Source of the DNA: a phage
Length of the DNA stretch: 64,000 nt
Assembly: GCA_023732985.1 (NCBI GenBank)
Contig: GCA_023732985.1_3946.1
Direction: 5' to 3' (one strand)
Shown here: in pieces, positions 41,953-46,007 of the stretch
Layout: each line of letters opens with the position of its first letter
Numbering within the stretch: position 1 is the first letter of the stretch
The notes under the pieces: model-generated
Database searches by the model: none
Told to the model about the DNA's origin: nothing
The model's input: the letters and a program-made list of their open reading frames with translations, nothing else
Position numbers and translations under genes: made by a program

Positions 41953-42324
41953 ATGAAAAACAGAACAAACAAAGGCCAGTTTAAAAAAGGCCAGTCTGGA
42001 AACCCATCTGGAAGACCAAAAGGCTCTCGTAACAAAAGCTCACTTGTAAAAGCTCAACTGACCATTGATAATTCTGCTGAGTTTGCTGCAAAGTTGTTTG
42101 AAGCAATTGTTACAAGGGATGCTGCTAAGCTTGCAGAGTTCGGGTTAAACACAGACGACGTAACCATCAAGAGCATGATTGAGGTCGGTAAAACTATCAT
42201 GACTCACTCAGCAGGTGAGATGAAAGCCATTGCAGCAGACACTAAGAAGACTCCTGATAACGGTGGTCAGTCTCAGACAGATAACAAACCAACGTTCTCT
42301 GCTGTAGCAACTCTTAAAAAATAA
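41953..42324 (+). CDS. hypothetical protein with N-terminal GQFKKGQSGNPSGRPKG motif
   Basis: Gly/Pro-rich basic N-terminal motif; function unknown. Confidence 0.55.
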   Translation: MKNRTNKGQFKKGQSGNPSGRPKGSRNKSSLVKAQLTIDNSAEFAAKLFEAIVTRDAAKLAEFGLNTDDVTIKSMIEVGKTIMTHSAGEMKAIAADTKKTPDNGGQSQTDNKPTFSAVATLKK

Positions 42325-42405: not shown

Positions 42406-43821
42406 ATGAGCGAATTATTTAAACATGCGCACCTTCATGCAGGTCGAACTGAAAATGGTGCTGTAAACCATACTTCATCAATGTCTGCTCTTGTAGACTT
42501 TTACAAAGCTGCTGGTTCAAGCCGTAGCAACGTAGAAATCTTACCAGACCTGTTCTACAAAGCTTTGCGTGAGGATGTTGATGTTGCAGTTCGTATTTTA
42601 CTGCATATGCGAGATGTACGAGAAGGCATGGGTGAGCGTAAAGCCTTCAGAACTGTTTTGCTTCAAGCGATTGAAGACAAAGTTTTAGAGTCTACGCAGG
42701 TTCTTCGCATTATGGATAAGATTGCAGAACTTGGTCGTTTTGATGACTTCAAAATCTTCGTGGGTACTCGTTTCGAGACAGATGCCTTCAAGCATTTAGA
42801 AGCAGCATTACTAGACCCTGCAACAGCAGGTTTGGCAGCTAAGTGGTTACCACGAGTCAAACCACGTCATAAGCAGTTTGTAAAACGTTTCTGCAAGTTT
42901 GCCAACTTGAGTGAGAAAGAGTACCGCACACTATTGTCTGCACTATCTGATACAGTTGAGCAAAAAATCTCTGCTAATGAGTTTGGTAAGATTGACTACA
43001 GTAAGATTCCTTCACTTGCTGCTGCACGTTACCAAAAACTGTTTAACCGTAAAGATGGAGAGCGTTACAAAGCTTACATCGAGTCCTTATCAAAAGGTGA
43101 GACTAAGATTAACGCTGGTGCTGTTTACCCATACGATGTGATTAAATCTGTCAAGTGTGGTAATGCAGATGTTGCTAATGAGCAGTGGAAAGCACTACCA
43201 AACTGGATGGCAGAAGGTGAAAACATCTTGTGTATGTCTGATGTATCAAGTTCAATGTCTTGGGTGAATTTTGGCTCCATTACTGCTCTGGATATTGGCG
43301 TATCACTTGCCTTGTATGTAGCAGAACGCAATACAGGTTGCTTTAAGAATGAGTTGATGGTTTATTCGACAAACCCTCACTTCATCGAACTGAGTGGTGA
43401 TTTACGAAACCGTCATCGTCAGGTGATGCGACACGTTGAATATGGCTCAACTAACTTACAAGCAGCTTTTGACCGCATTCTTGAAACAGGTAAAAGAAAC
43501 AACTTGACTCATAAAGATATGCCAAGTAAGCTTATCATCTTCTCCGATATGGAGTTCAATCAGGTTGATGGAGCTAACGGTCGTACAAACTTTGAAGCAA
43601 TTCAGAGTAAGTACAAAAAAGCTGGATATGAGATGCCACAACTGGTATTCTGGTACTTAGCAAACCGTAATGGTACTTGCGAAGTATCTGTTAAGGATAA
43701 CGGTGTAGCAATGGTATCAGGGTTCTCTCCAGCCACTTTAAAAGCTCTGCTTGGTGGTGAGAAGTTTGACCCAATCAGTGTAATGCTCAAAGCAGTAATG
43801 ATTGACCGTTATATCTGGTAA
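42406..43821 (+). CDS. vWA-domain protein with MIDAS motif (possible Ro60-like RNA-binding protein)
   Basis: helical N-terminal ~280 aa then vWA region with DVSSSMS (DxSxS); Ro60-like assignment is inference. Confidence 0.6.
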   Translation: MSELFKHAHLHAGRTENGAVNHTSSMSALVDFYKAAGSSRSNVEILPDLFYKALREDVDVAVRILLHMRDVREGMGERKAFRTVLLQAIEDKVLESTQVLRIMDKIAELGRFDDFKIFVGTRFETDAFKHLEAALLDPATAGLAAKWLPRVKPRHKQFVKRFCKFANLSEKEYRTLLSALSDTVEQKISANEFGKIDYSKIPSLAAARYQKLFNRKDGERYKAYIESLSKGETKINAGAVYPYDVIKSVKCGNADVANEQWKALPNWMAEGENILCMSDVSSSMSWVNFGSITALDIGVSLALYVAERNTGCFKNELMVYSTNPHFIELSGDLRNRHRQVMRHVEYGSTNLQAAFDRILETGKRNNLTHKDMPSKLIIFSDMEFNQVDGANGRTNFEAIQSKYKKAGYEMPQLVFWYLANRNGTCEVSVKDNGVAMVSGFSPATLKALLGGEKFDPISVMLKAVMIDRYIW

Positions 43822-43839: not shown

Positions 43840-43868
43840 TTGACAATGTGTTTAATACCCTTTAATAT
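43840..43868 (+). promoter_or_regulatory. sigma70-like promoter upstream of the tRNA cluster
   Basis: TTGACA, 17 bp spacer, TAATAT. Confidence 0.5.
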
Positions 43869-43986
43869 GTTCTACATAGAAACGAAATGAGAGCTTTTCT
43901 AAGATACTGAAAAATATTTTAAAAAAGTTCTTGACAACCACTAAAAAATAATGTTAAAGTGGTTACATAGAGTTTGAAAAGTTTAT

Positions 43987-44145: not shown

Positions 44146-44155
44146 CCAGTTTTGA

Positions 44156-44226
44156 CAGAAGACCAATTACAGCAAACTTAATCTTATTCATCTGAAGGTA
44201 AATCGGACAAAGAAGAGATTTGGTCT
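44156..44226 (+). ncRNA. tRNA-spacer hairpin element, copy 1
   Basis: CAGAAGACCAATTACAGCAAACTT ... TTGGTCTGG; closing stem AGACCAA/TTGGTCT. Confidence 0.4.
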
Positions 44227-44239
44227 GGTCATTAAGAAT

Positions 44240-44313: not shown

Positions 44314-44329
44314 CCAAATTTACAGAAGA

Positions 44330-44384
44330 CCGTTTACAGCAATACTTATTAAATTTTTAGCGGAAAAATTGAAAGATACGGTCT
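44330..44384 (+). ncRNA. tRNA-spacer hairpin element, copy 2
   Basis: closing stem AGACCGT/ACGGTCT with conserved TTACAGCAA. Confidence 0.4.
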
Positions 44385-44399
44385 GGTAATACTAAACAT

Positions 44400-44577: not shown

Positions 44578-44651
44578 GGCTATGTAGTTTAACTGGAGAA
44601 AATACTCCCCTGTCACGGGAGATGATGTGAGTTCAAGTCTCATCGTAGCCG
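44578..44651 (+). tRNA. tRNA-Asp (anticodon GTC)
   Basis: acceptor GGCTATG/CGTAGCC; anticodon stem CTCCC/GGGAG, loop CTGTCAC. Confidence 0.7.
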
Positions 44652-44719
44652 CCAATTTTGAGAGGGCTATTTAGCTCCTCCCTTAAAGAGTTCTTACGAG
44701 TATTCTTTAAAGGAGCAGA

Positions 44720-44787
44720 AGACCAAATACAGCAAGAATGTATGAAATTTCAAGCCAATTTAATTTTGAAAATTTAAAACTTGGTCT
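44720..44787 (+). ncRNA. tRNA-spacer hairpin element, copy 3
   Basis: closing stem AGACCAA/TTGGTCT with conserved ATACAGCAAG. Confidence 0.4.
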
Positions 44788-44806
44788 GGCTCAACAAATT
44801 TACAGA

Positions 44807-44932
44807 AGACCGTTTACAGCAAAACTTAAACAATCTATTTCTCCGGTAAAGAAAAGGCGAAGGTTCGATTCCTTCACTCGGCAGATGTCGAGTTGGTGTA
44901 ATGGTAGCACTTAAGATGATAAACAACGGTCT
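44807..44932 (+). ncRNA. tRNA-spacer hairpin element, copy 4, carrying a permuted tRNA-like module (candidate Y RNA-like tRNA mimic)
   Basis: closing stem AGACCGTT/AACGGTCT; inside, T-arm GAAGG-TTCGATT-CCTTC, then ACTCGGC, AGAT loop, GTCGAGT (7 bp acceptor-like helix), then D-arm-like GTGTAATGGTAGCAC. Confidence 0.4.
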
Positions 44933-44940
44933 GGTAATTA

Positions 44941-45072
44941 TCTTTGTAGATAAGTTATTAAGCTTACCTGTGAGTATGCGACCACAAAGGGTGAAGGGTA
45001 AATTCTAGATTTAAACCTAAAAGGCACATCGCTACAGACCTTAAGCAAGTCTGGGTAGCTTATCTACAAAGA
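44941..45072 (+). ncRNA. structured element closed by a 14 bp perfect inverted repeat
   Basis: TCTTTGTAGATAAG ... CTTATCTACAAAGA enclosing about 105 nt. Confidence 0.35.
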
Positions 45073-45080
45073 TAATTTAA

Positions 45081-45154
45081 TGGAAGTGTAGCAGAATGGT
45101 GATGCGGCAGACTTTTAATCTGACAGGCGATGGGTTCGAATCCCTCCACTTCTA
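45081..45154 (+). tRNA. tRNA-Lys (anticodon TTT)
   Basis: acceptor GGAAGTG/CACTTCT; anticodon loop CTTTTAA; paralog of the tRNA at 46672. Confidence 0.6.
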
Positions 45155-45563: not shown

Positions 45564-45642
45564 CGGGGCGTATCTCAGCGGTCTTCTAAACCGCCGTTAA
45601 CCGAGTAAGTGGAGTATGCGGGTTCGAGTCCTGCCGCCTCGA
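45564..45642 (+). tRNA. tRNA-like gene, non-canonical fold, isotype unresolved
   Basis: 7 bp acceptor CGGGGCG/CGCCTCG and T-arm GCGGG-TTCGAGT-CCTGC, but D and anticodon arms could not be placed by hand. Confidence 0.35.
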
Positions 45643-45659
45643 CCAATTTTGGAGAAATC

Positions 45660-46007
45660 ATGAAAACTTGTATTAGGTGCAAACTTAGCAAGGATGAAAA
45701 TGATTTCTACATGAAAGATGGTAGGAGAACTCATTCATACTGTAAAAAGTGTGTTAATGAGCAAACCATAGAAAGACAAAGAGCACTTAAACTCTTAGCT
45801 ATTGAGTACAAAGGTGGGGTTTGTCATGATTGTGGTAAGAAGTATCATCCAGCAGTGTATGACTTCCATCATTTGAATCCTTCAGATAAAGATTTTAACA
45901 TTGGTCATAGGAAAAGCCTTAAGTTCTCTCAAGAACTAAAAGATGAACTTGACAAATGTGTTTTGCTATGTTCAAATTGCCATAGGGTAAGACATGCAAA
46001 ATATTAG
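45660..46007 (+). CDS. HNH homing endonuclease
   Basis: ATG at 45660 (track start overlaps the tRNA-like gene); CxxC pairs plus DFHHLNP...LLCSNCHRVRH. Confidence 0.65.
   Translation: MKTCIRCKLSKDENDFYMKDGRRTHSYCKKCVNEQTIERQRALKLLAIEYKGGVCHDCGKKYHPAVYDFHHLNPSDKDFNIGHRKSLKFSQELKDELDKCVLLCSNCHRVRHAKY

What the first reader, a model, noticed from the sequence alone, without database searches (positions are those of the whole stretch)
44807..44932. Circularly permuted tRNA-like module inside a spacer hairpin (candidate Y RNA-like tRNA mimic)
Between tRNA-Asp and tRNA-Lys, a stem AGACCGTT/AACGGTCT (44807-44814 with 44925-44932) encloses a perfect T-arm GAAGG-TTCGATT-CCTTC (44859-44875), then ACTCGGC, a four-nt AGAT loop, GTCGAGT, then a D-arm-like GTGTAATGGTAGCAC. 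ACTCGGC and GTCGAGT form a 7 bp acceptor-like helix, but in 3'-strand then 5'-strand order, so the element is a tRNA opened at the anticodon and closed at the acceptor end. That is the architecture described for bacterial and phage Y RNA-like tRNA mimics, which occur next to Ro60 orthologs. A vWA/MIDAS protein of compatible architecture lies about 1 kb upstream at 42406-43821.
Basis: partly seen in the sequence, partly recalled or inferred. Interest (0 to 1): 0.8.

Follow-up and report, generated by a model that had tools for sequence, protein, structure and literature searches.

The report
Phage Y-RNA-like tRNA mimic beside Ro60-like gene
A stretch between two tRNA genes of a Felix O1-type phage encodes a back-to-front tRNA look-alike, one of four related small RNAs placed just after a gene for a very divergent Ro60-like RNA-binding protein; it matters because this pairing recurs in many unrelated phages and names the likely RNA partners of a protein recently reported to counter a bacterial defence.

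The parts
42406..43821 (+). Gene for a divergent Ro60-like protein (471 aa): helical-repeat ring plus a vWA domain with an intact MIDAS. It is Felix O1 ORF42, annotated 'RNA-binding protein'.
43840..43960 (+). Two sigma-70-like promoter matches (TTGACA at 43840 and 43931) upstream of the tRNA/Y-RNA array. They are the presumed start of a polycistronic transcript.
   Evidence: Consensus scan, 10 of 12 matches each. There is no + strand terminator-like site between 43987 and 45315. The evidence is weak: the number of promoter-like sites equals the shuffle expectation.
44153..44231 (+). Y1, a short box-stem module in the tRNA-Glu/tRNA-Met spacer: outer helix UGAC/GUCA, internal loop AGA/G, stem AGACCAA/UUGGUCU, box UACAGCAA at 44168-44175.
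   Evidence: Sequence. The exact 16-base signature occurs 4 times in the window against 0.06 expected.
44320..44389 (+). Y2, a short box-stem module in the tRNA-Met/tRNA-Asn spacer: outer helix UUAC/GUAA, box at 44335-44342.
   Evidence: In L014 the outer helix is UUGC/GCAA, a compensatory change.
44713..44792 (+). Y3, a box-stem module without a tRNA-like domain: outer helix GAGC/GCUC, box at 44728-44735.
44800..44937 (+). Y4, the finding: the whole Y-RNA-like module carrying the permuted tRNA-like domain.
   Evidence: (own model R1 73.8 bits, a training member).
44807..44814 (+). 5' strand of the enclosing stem (AGACCGUU). It pairs with 44925-44932 (AACGGUCU), which is followed by the conserved unpaired G at 44933. 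The outer helix is 44800-44803 with 44934-44937.
   Evidence: The family consensus is A-G-R-W-U-N-N-N / N-N-N-A-W-Y-C-U + G over 96 distinct modules.
44815..44822 (+). Conserved box UACAGCAA immediately 3' of the stem. It is the candidate recognition site for the Ro60-like protein and sits where the GNCGAA motif sits in canonical Y RNAs.
   Evidence: Compare Bxz1 YrlA, where the stem is followed by GCCGAG.
44838..44854 (+). V hairpin, an anticodon-arm mimic: UUUCU-CCGGUAA-AGAAA.
   Evidence: The tRNA model aligns it as an anticodon arm. ARAGORN on the un-permuted sequence reads anticodon GGU. The loop varies among close relatives.
44859..44875 (+). T arm, GAAGG-UUCGAUU-CCUUC.
44876..44893 (+). 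Acceptor-like hairpin: ACUCGGC, loop AGAU, GUCGAGU, with the 3' strand first.
   Evidence: 7 of 7 pairs covary and 100% of cells pair. The sequence is ACACGU/GCGUGU in Sf18 and ACCCUUC/GAAGGGU in Mordin.
44896..44910 (+). D arm, GUGU-AAUGGUA-GCAC, preceded by U8-G9 at 44894-44895.

Best explanation
Y4 is a non-coding RNA of the Y RNA / YrlA type.

What is shown:
- Its 5' and 3' ends pair into a stem that carries a conserved internal-loop box, UACAGCAA.
- Its interior folds as a tRNA mimic. It is a full cloverleaf permuted at position 26/27, with T arm, D arm, an anticodon-arm-like hairpin, and an acceptor helix closed by a tetraloop.
- It is one of four box-stem RNAs (Y1-Y4) interleaved with tRNA genes directly downstream of a gene for a highly divergent Ro60-like protein.
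- The RNA structure covaries, the protein has the Ro60 fold, and RNA and protein genes are linked on the same strand across distant phages.

What is inferred, by analogy with Ro60/Rsr-Y RNA particles:
- The RNAs are transcribed with the tRNA array. Ordinary tRNA processing of their neighbours (RNase P and 3' trimming) cuts them free.
- The Ro60-like ring binds the stem plus box.
- The variable interior acts as the effector module. In Y4 the tRNA-like domain would dock tRNA-recognising factors such as RNase P, modification enzymes, the CCA-adding enzyme, PNPase or a tRNA-directed nuclease. This would tether or gate the protein's activity on structured RNA during infection.
For: Structure:
- The fold and all arms are present.
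- Covariation: 98.6% of cells pair, 12 of 16 pairs are compensatory, the acceptor-like helix covaries at 7 of 7 pairs, and 0 of 500 shuffles reach this.
- G.U pairs fit only the + strand RNA.
- The un-permuted sequence is a 71-nt cloverleaf by ARAGORN.

Protein:
- The MIDAS residues are invariant.

Coupling of RNA and protein:
- Four exact copies of the signature lie in the window's tRNA array, against 0.06 expected.
- In 65 distant loci of the protein family, the strict stem+box signature hits 25 times on the gene's strand and 0 times on the other, with shuffles giving 0-2.
- The box lies within 600 nt of the gene in 46 of 65 loci, including loci with no tRNA genes.
- An RNA-first scan of IMG/VR returns the protein in 31 of 80 stored loci. 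All 31 are on the same strand and most are within 2 kb.

Link to YrlA:
- RF02553 hits the tRNA-like modules of L021 (38.2 bits, E 8e-7, full length) and L028 (35.8 bits). A genuine TROVE-linked Bxz1 YrlA scores 32.5.
- My own model built from this class finds Bxz1 YrlA at 33.2 bits.
- The layout is the same as in canonical YrlA: stem, then motif, then tRNA-like domain.

Literature:
Against: - There are no expression, end-mapping or binding data.
- Rfam YrlA does not hit the window copy at E<=10, and the canonical GNCGAAN0-1G motif is absent.
- The protein fails Pfam TROVE. Its sequence similarity to Ro60 is marginal (E about 0.6; hhalign covers only 40 MIDAS columns at 62%).
- The MFE z-score is only -1.5.
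- The helix that should replace the anticodon stem is weak and ambiguous (CUUA/UAAG or AUCU/AGAU).
- Bas63 gp130 alone, expressed from a plasmid or from T7, counters Ppl. That phenotype therefore does not need the phage's own RNAs.
- About 49 of the 80 RNA-first loci show no protein in the stored stretch. This may be truncation, but that is not shown.
Confidence: 0.72

Rival explanations
1. Evolutionary debris or processing punctuation. Under this reading the module is a decayed remnant of tandem tRNA genes: the 3' part of one copy joined to the 5' part of the next. It would serve at most as a structured spacer that helps cut the tRNA precursor, with no dedicated protein partner.
For: - It lies inside a tRNA array.
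- A tandem duplicate of one tRNA gene gives exactly this order.
- In Mordin and Moogle the acceptor-like loop reads GCCA-AACA, like a tRNA 3' end plus a short spacer.
- 8 of 24 long loops across the class begin NCCA, consistent with such an origin.
- Tandem tRNA junctions score up to about 37 bits with my model.
Against: - Compensatory changes at every acceptor-like pair, and retention across genera, imply selection on the fold.
- The conserved box and stem have no role in a remnant.
- The same modules flank the protein gene in loci with no tRNA genes at all.
- There is no close similarity to any tRNA of the array.
Confidence: 0.1
2. A genuine circularly permuted or split tRNA. Processing at the acceptor loop would yield a two-piece, chargeable tRNA-like molecule that acts in translation, or as an amino-acid donor, independently of the protein.
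For: - The un-permuted sequence is called tRNA-Thr(GGU).
- Sf18 has a canonical CUGGUAA anticodon loop.
- NCCA is encoded at the acceptor end in a third of long-loop relatives.
- M. smegmatis YrlA is cut by RNase P and receives CCA (PMC4201824).
Against: - In the window the acceptor end is a closed AGAU tetraloop without CCA.
- Position 33 is C, not U.
- The 'anticodon' loop differs among near-identical phages (CCGGUAA, a 6-nt CGGUAA, CUGGUAA) and is unrelated in Mordin.
- The break at 26/27 leaves the anticodon arm attached by one strand only.
- No bacterial pathway for permuted tRNAs is known (my own knowledge).
- The box and stem are unexplained.
Confidence: 0.06
3. A free-standing tRNA decoy. 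The tRNA-like fold would soak up a host tRNA-targeting defence nuclease by itself. The Ro60-like gene would be only a neighbour in the same counter-defence island.
For: - Large phage tRNA arrays are commonly read as a response to tRNA depletion (my own knowledge).
- A complete cloverleaf including an anticodon-arm mimic is kept.
- gp130 works without the RNAs against Ppl.
Against: - It does not explain Y1-Y3 or the many short box hairpins that lack any tRNA-like part yet share the stem and box.
- It does not explain the tight same-strand linkage to the protein gene in tRNA-less loci.
Confidence: 0.07
4. A DNA-level repeat. The 8-bp inverted repeats AGACC.../...GGTCT would mark recombination sites, mobile-element ends or homing-endonuclease targets rather than an RNA.
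For: - Four similar inverted-repeat-bounded units lie in 800 bp.
- HNH endonuclease genes are scattered in this array.
Against: - Strand bias is absolute: 25 hits to 0 and 31 of 31 same-strand loci.
- G.U pairs would be A-C mismatches on the other strand.
- The interior helices covary.
Confidence: 0.03

Closest known systems
YrlA, the bacterial and phage Y RNA-like tRNA mimics (Rfam RF02553; Chen et al. 2014, PMC4201824)
   Same: - A 5'/3' stem is followed at once by a short conserved motif.
- The interior has V, T, acceptor-like and D stem-loops in that order, with the acceptor end closed by a loop.
- It is encoded beside, and on the same strand as, a Ro60-fold protein, often together with a second shorter Y RNA.
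- Relatives in this protein family's loci are hit by RF02553 at scores like a genuine phage YrlA.
   Different: - The motif is UACAGCAA, not GNCGAAN0-1G.
- The window copy is not detected by RF02553 at E<=10.
- The D arm is GUGU-AAUGGUA-GCAC rather than GCUCA..GGUAGAGC.
- The partner protein is Pfam DUF2828/DUF7788, not TROVE.
- Four copies are interleaved with tRNA genes.
- The V hairpin is a full anticodon-arm mimic.
Thermus phage phiLo phiRo60 with Yrl1/Yrl2 (PMC12135203; PDB 9KOP, 9L5Y)
   Different: - phiRo60 is a recognisable TROVE protein.
- Its RNAs carry the CGAA motif.
- No tRNA-like domain is mentioned in the searched text (0 occurrences of 'tRNA-like').
Bas63 gp130 (PhageMaP preprint, 10.1101/2024.10.10.617714)
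   Different: That work identifies the protein and its anti-Ppl phenotype. It only speculates that some annotated tRNA genes might be Y RNAs. The RNAs found here lie in the un-annotated spacers, not in the tRNA genes.
Circularly permuted tRNA genes (Cyanidioschyzon merolae type; my own knowledge)
   Same: The 3' part of the tRNA is encoded upstream of the 5' part, and the un-permuted sequence is a cloverleaf.
   Different: - There is no bulge-helix-bulge junction and no evidence of a circular intermediate.
- The acceptor end is a closed tetraloop without CCA in the window.
- The anticodon loop is not conserved.
- The module is embedded in a Y-RNA-type stem.

Membership tests
YrlA / Rfam RF02553 | A tRNA-like domain with V, T, acceptor-like (closed) and D stem-loops in that order, inside a 5'/3' stem | tested here: met
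   Sequence and MFE fold. Covariation of the T, AS and D helices. The order is as described in PMC4201824.
YrlA / Rfam RF02553 | Score at or above the family's gathering threshold (69 bits) with the Rfam covariance model | tested here: not met
   No RF02553 hit in the window at gathering or at E<=10 on 44640-45100. Relatives L021b (38.2 bits) and L028b (35.8 bits) are also below threshold. So is the positive control, Bxz1 YrlA, at 32.5 bits.
YrlA / Rfam RF02553 | Conserved GNCGAAN0-1G (CGAA) motif near the 5' end | tested here: not met
   The position after the stem holds UACAGCAA in Y1-Y4 and in 96 distinct related modules. The canonical motif is seen in the Bxz1 control.
YrlA / Rfam RF02553 | Encoded near, and on the same strand as, a Ro60 ortholog | tested here: met
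   Y4 starts 979 nt downstream of the stop of 42406-43821, on the same strand. The linkage is conserved in distant phages. The protein has the Ro60 fold but is not a Pfam TROVE protein.
YrlA / Rfam RF02553 | Bound by Ro60/Rsr; carries tRNA modifications; substrate of RNase P or the CCA-adding enzyme | not testable with these tools
   Needs RIP/EMSA, modification mapping and cleavage assays.
Ro60 / TROVE proteins (for the neighbour gene) | Helical-repeat ring followed by a vWA domain with MIDAS, matching solved Ro60 structures over the full length | tested here: met
Ro60 / TROVE proteins (for the neighbour gene) | Match to Pfam TROVE (PF05731) / vWA_Ro60 (PF25045) | tested here: not met
   Only DUF2828 and DUF7788 are reported. 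The control Bxz1 gp220 matches both Ro60 families. Profile against PDB sequences gives E about 0.6.
Canonical tRNA gene | Detected by ARAGORN or by Rfam tRNA at gathering, with contiguous 5'-to-3' arm order | tested here: not met
   ARAGORN makes no call at 44655-45081. Rfam tRNA gives only a partial 22-bit match covering the anticodon-like and T arms.
Circularly permuted tRNA gene | The un-permuted sequence folds as a cloverleaf | tested here: met
   ARAGORN calls a 71-nt tRNA-Thr(ggt) for the window and Sf18 constructs.
Circularly permuted tRNA gene | Conserved functional anticodon loop (U33) and a free or processable acceptor end with CCA | tested here: not met
   The window has C33 and a closed AGAU loop without CCA. 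The loop varies among close relatives and is unrelated in Mordin. NCCA is present in only some relatives.

The most novel reading that the evidence does not exclude
The Ro60-like protein and its box-stem RNAs form a phage counter-defence particle. The permuted, full-cloverleaf tRNA mimic would be the working end. In some lineages it has an encoded CCA end, released by RNase P. It would dock or trap a host tRNA-recognising or nucleic-acid-degrading defence factor (for example the ATPase-PHP protein Ppl, or a tRNA nuclease), or it would recruit PNPase to destroy that factor's RNA. This would be a widespread, previously unrecognised RNA-protein anti-defence class, with its own recognition code (UACAGCAA) distinct from canonical Y RNAs.
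Probability: 0.2. Interest if true: 0.85.

Novelty: new variant of a known kind. Interest (0 to 1): 0.72.

Why it matters
Ro60-Y RNA particles are known from animals, about 5% of bacteria and a handful of phages, all found through the TROVE annotation. Here both partners have drifted out of reach of the standard models: the protein out of Pfam TROVE, and this RNA copy out of Rfam YrlA. Even so, the pair is present in Felix O1, wV8 and about 250 sequenced relatives, and in many unrelated phage contigs.

- This enlarges the family and gives it a second recognition motif.
- It shows Y-type RNAs riding inside tRNA operons.
- It points to the missing RNA partners of a protein (Bas63 gp130) recently reported in a preprint to defeat a bacterial defence system.
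- Simple experiments become possible: pull-downs, box mutants and spacer deletions.
- It flags about 800 bp of 'empty' spacer, sometimes annotated as hypothetical ORFs, as RNA genes.

Tried and rejected
- **Rfam on the window.** Searches at gathering and at E<=10 gave no Y_RNA or YrlA hit on Y4. I kept this as a failed membership test, not as a refutation, because a control YrlA also falls below gathering.
- **Sequence-level link of the protein to Ro60.** The profile against PDB gave E about 0.6. hhalign against Bxz1 gp220 covered only 40 MIDAS columns at 62%. The case therefore rests on fold comparison.
- **G.U versus A.C mismatch count in relaxed stem scans.** 18 against 15, inconclusive because stem registers differ. 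Strand bias was used instead.
- **Origin from a tRNA of the same array.** No close match.
- **DUF5681 gene (41953-42324) as a third conserved partner.** It is found only in Ounavirinae.
- **ORF 44738-44914 (58 aa), annotated 'hypothetical protein' in some records.** Rejected as coding. Indels of 4 and 1 nt and paired substitutions in Mordin and Moogle follow the RNA helices, not a reading frame.
- **Chen et al. supplementary alignments.** Not held.
- **The helix standing in for the anticodon stem.** CUUA 44825-44828 with UAAG 44912-44915, or AUCU 44833-44836 with AGAU 44914-44917. This could not be settled from the available variation.
- **MAFFT alignment of whole modules (A3).** It misaligned divergent members, so the core alignment A4 was used.

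Full report
**Where the window comes from.** The region belongs to a Felix O1-type myovirus.
- The tRNA-Asp/tRNA-Lys spacer matches 252 phage records, and 181 of them cover at least 80% of it.
- The upstream protein gene is 99.2% identical to that of E. coli phage wV8.
- ARAGORN finds 25 tRNA genes on the + strand. In every record examined, the spacer 44655-45081 carries no annotated RNA gene.

**The observation.**
- Enclosing stem: 44807-44814 with 44925-44932.
- T arm: 44859-44875.
- Acceptor-like hairpin: ACUCGGC, loop AGAU, GUCGAGU, at 44876-44893. It is 7 bp with one G.U, and the 3' strand comes first.
- U8-G9, then the D arm at 44896-44910.

RNAfold returns exactly this multi-branch fold, although the energy is not unusual (z = -1.54). 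A strict pattern for T arm, then hairpin, then D arm has a single site in the window on both strands.

- A 5-bp/7-nt hairpin at 44838-44854 sits just before the T arm. Rfam's tRNA model aligns it as an anticodon arm (22 bits, partial).
- I moved the 5' half (acceptor strand plus D arm) in front of this hairpin, the T arm and the 3' acceptor strand. ARAGORN then calls a complete 71-nt cloverleaf, tRNA-Thr(GGU).
- The element is therefore a whole tRNA permuted at position 26/27, not one opened at the anticodon loop. In YrlA nomenclature this hairpin is the V arm (PMC4201824).
- Its loop is not conserved as an anticodon loop. It reads CCGGUAA here, a 6-nt CGGUAA in Felix O1, CUGGUAA in Sf18, and something unrelated in Mordin.

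**Selection on the fold.**
- Across Felixounavirus and Mooglevirus the T and D arms are nearly invariant. The acceptor-like helix changes sequence but keeps pairing: ACUCGGC/GUCGAGU, ACACGU/GCGUGU, ACCCUUC/GAAGGGU.
- I added similar modules from distant phages, for 9 sequences in all. 98.6% of cells pair and 12 of 16 pairs change on both sides. All 7 acceptor-like pairs covary. None of 500 shuffles reaches this, and slid controls pair at 42-52%.

**Siblings in the same array.**
- The pattern AGAAGACC-NNN-TACAGCAA occurs four times in the window, against 0.06 expected. All four are on the + strand in tRNA spacers.
- Each copy has a downstream GGUCU-G partner and a 4-bp outer helix that differs between copies while staying complementary: UGAC/GUCA, UUAC/GUAA, GAGC/GCUC.
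- These are Y1 (44153-44231), Y2 (44320-44389), Y3 (44713-44792) and Y4 (44800-44937). Only Y4 holds the tRNA-like domain.
- They almost fill their spacers, so tRNA processing of the neighbours would release them. That step is inferred.
- Promoter-like TTGACA sites lie at 43840 and 43931, and no + strand terminator-like site falls inside the array.

**The protein.**
- ORF 42406-43821 matches Pfam DUF2828 and DUF7788, not TROVE. PHROGs calls it an RNA-binding protein.
- An AlphaFold model built on 30 homologs has pLDDT 87.5.
- Foldseek's top 11 PDB hits are all full-length Ro60/Rsr.
- The MIDAS residues are invariant.
- Sequence methods barely see the relationship.

**Coupling of protein and RNA, starting from the protein.**
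- I fetched 80 IMG/VR loci encoding relatives of the protein; 65 of them are only 38-47% identical to it.
- A strict signature (8-bp stem, box, paired partner, then G) gave 25 hits in 21 of those 65 loci, all on the gene's strand. The other strand gave none, and shuffles gave 0-2.
- The 8-mer U[A/U]CAGCAA lies within 600 nt of the gene, outside the coding sequence, in 46 of 65 loci. It often occurs twice about 60 nt apart.
- Many of these loci have no tRNA genes.
- Ninety-six distinct modules give the consensus A-G-R-W-U-N-N-N + UWCAGCAA ... N-N-N-A-W-Y-C-U + G, with free covariation at the N positions.
- The interiors vary. Some are short hairpins, some are a 240-270-nt domain, and some are tRNA-like.

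**Coupling, starting from the RNA.**
- I scanned IMG/VR for TACAGCAA, a gap of 10-40 nt, then GGTTCGANTCC. This gave at least 120 stretches.
- Of the 80 loci listed, 31 contain a relative of the protein in the stored stretch. All 31 are on the same strand and most lie within 2 kb.
- None contains a canonical TROVE protein.
- Parsing gave 53 distinct modules with the box plus T arm, hairpin and D arm.

**Relation to YrlA.**
- Rfam 15 holds RF02553 (YrlA; 114 positions; gathering score 69 bits).
- As a control I used mycobacteriophage Bxz1, whose gp220 is a genuine TROVE + vWA_Ro60 protein. Its upstream YrlA scores 32.5 bits.
- The tRNA-like modules next to the DUF2828 genes of L021 and L028 score 38.2 bits (full length, E 8e-7) and 35.8 bits.
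- The window's Y4 gives no RF02553 hit at E<=10.
- My own model built from this class finds Bxz1 YrlA at 33.2 bits. Tandem tRNA junctions score up to about 37 bits, so only higher scores, or hits away from tRNA genes, count.
- In Bxz1 the stem is followed by GCCGAG/GGCCGAAGG. That is the canonical motif, in the position that UACAGCAA occupies here.
- The class therefore has the YrlA design and is detectably related to it. It fails two defining tests, the motif and the Rfam threshold. I call it a variant, not a member.

**An extra regularity.** Among modules whose acceptor-like loop is 7 nt or longer, 8 of 24 begin NCCA. Chance is 1 in 64 for each. The Mooglevirus version of this very element, GCCAAACA, is one of them. 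This fits an origin from tandem copies of one tRNA gene. It also fits RNase P cutting with a real CCA end, as reported for M. smegmatis YrlA. The window copy has a closed AGAU loop and no CCA.

**Literature.**
- Chen et al. 2014 searched only TROVE-annotated genomes.
- The phiLo study describes CGAA-type Yrl RNAs.
- The Felix O1 genome paper does not mention the element.
- Full-text searches for DUF2828, Ro60-like and related terms found no description of this RNA.
- The PhageMaP preprint reports that Bas63 gp130, directly upstream of the tRNA array, is Ro60-like and counters the Ppl defence. It guesses that some annotated tRNA genes might be Y RNAs. It also shows that gp130 alone works in T7.

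**Verdict.**
- The most likely mechanism is a Ro60-like/Y-RNA particle with a tRNA-mimic effector module. I put this at 0.72. The structure, the protein fold and the genomic coupling are shown. Transcription, processing, binding and function are inferred.

Noticed in passing
window 44933-45078: A third structured element lies between Y4 and tRNA-Lys. It has a stem of about 28 bp enclosing small hairpins, kept between Felixounavirus and Mooglevirus with several compensatory pairs. It has no UACAGCAA box. Its 5' end overlaps Y4's outer helix (GUAA 44934-44937). It may be an RNase III-type processing site or a separate RNA. Some relatives lack or replace it (hits covering only query positions 1-295 of the spacer).
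   Followed up: partly
window 44655-44712: The 58 nt between tRNA-Asp and Y3 are almost invariant across genera, more so than the Y RNAs' interiors. They fold into two hairpins, including UUAAAGAGU/AUUCUUUAA. No function is assigned.
   Followed up: no
window 45564-45642: Rfam calls a tRNA here (31.7 bits, just above gathering) that ARAGORN does not. The position corresponds to tRNA-Arg(TCT) of Sf18 and Mordin. It is overlapped by an HNH-endonuclease-like ORF at 45609-46007. It may be a degraded or interrupted tRNA gene.
   Followed up: no
window 44738-44914: A 58-aa ATG ORF runs across Y3 and Y4, and several GenBank relatives annotate 'hypothetical protein' under this spacer. The indel and substitution pattern follows RNA helices, so these annotations are probably spurious.
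   Followed up: partly
L027 7468-7724; L035 4790-5065; L048 7521-7762; L068 3739-3995; L084 7715-7970: Many distant phages pair a short box hairpin (about 55 nt) with a long box-stem RNA (240-275 nt). The long interior is neither tRNA-like nor matched here to anything. L027 and L035 share a stretch (CAACUUCUCAUUGU). This may be a second effector-domain type of the same RNA class.
   Followed up: no
L003 3650-3657 (Mordin), L021, L043, L072, L099, L149 and others: Acceptor-like loops of 7 nt or longer start with NCCA in 8 of 24 distinct modules. This looks like an encoded tRNA 3' end followed by a short leader. It suggests RNase P processing into a two-piece RNA, or an origin from tandem tRNA genes.
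   Followed up: partly
L088, L097, L109, L116, L128 (contigs of 357-378 kb): Jumbo-phage contigs carry two or three box plus T-arm matches each, but no DUF2828-like or TROVE ORF in the stored stretch. The partner protein may lie further away or be more divergent still.
   Followed up: no
L051 11822-12176; L057 12119-12479: Phage-encoded tmRNA genes lie about 4.5 kb downstream of the DUF2828 gene in two loci.
   Followed up: no
window 41953-42324: A DUF5681 gene sits directly upstream of the Ro60-like gene in all Ounavirinae examined, but it is not found beside the distant relatives. It is therefore not a conserved third component.
   Followed up: yes
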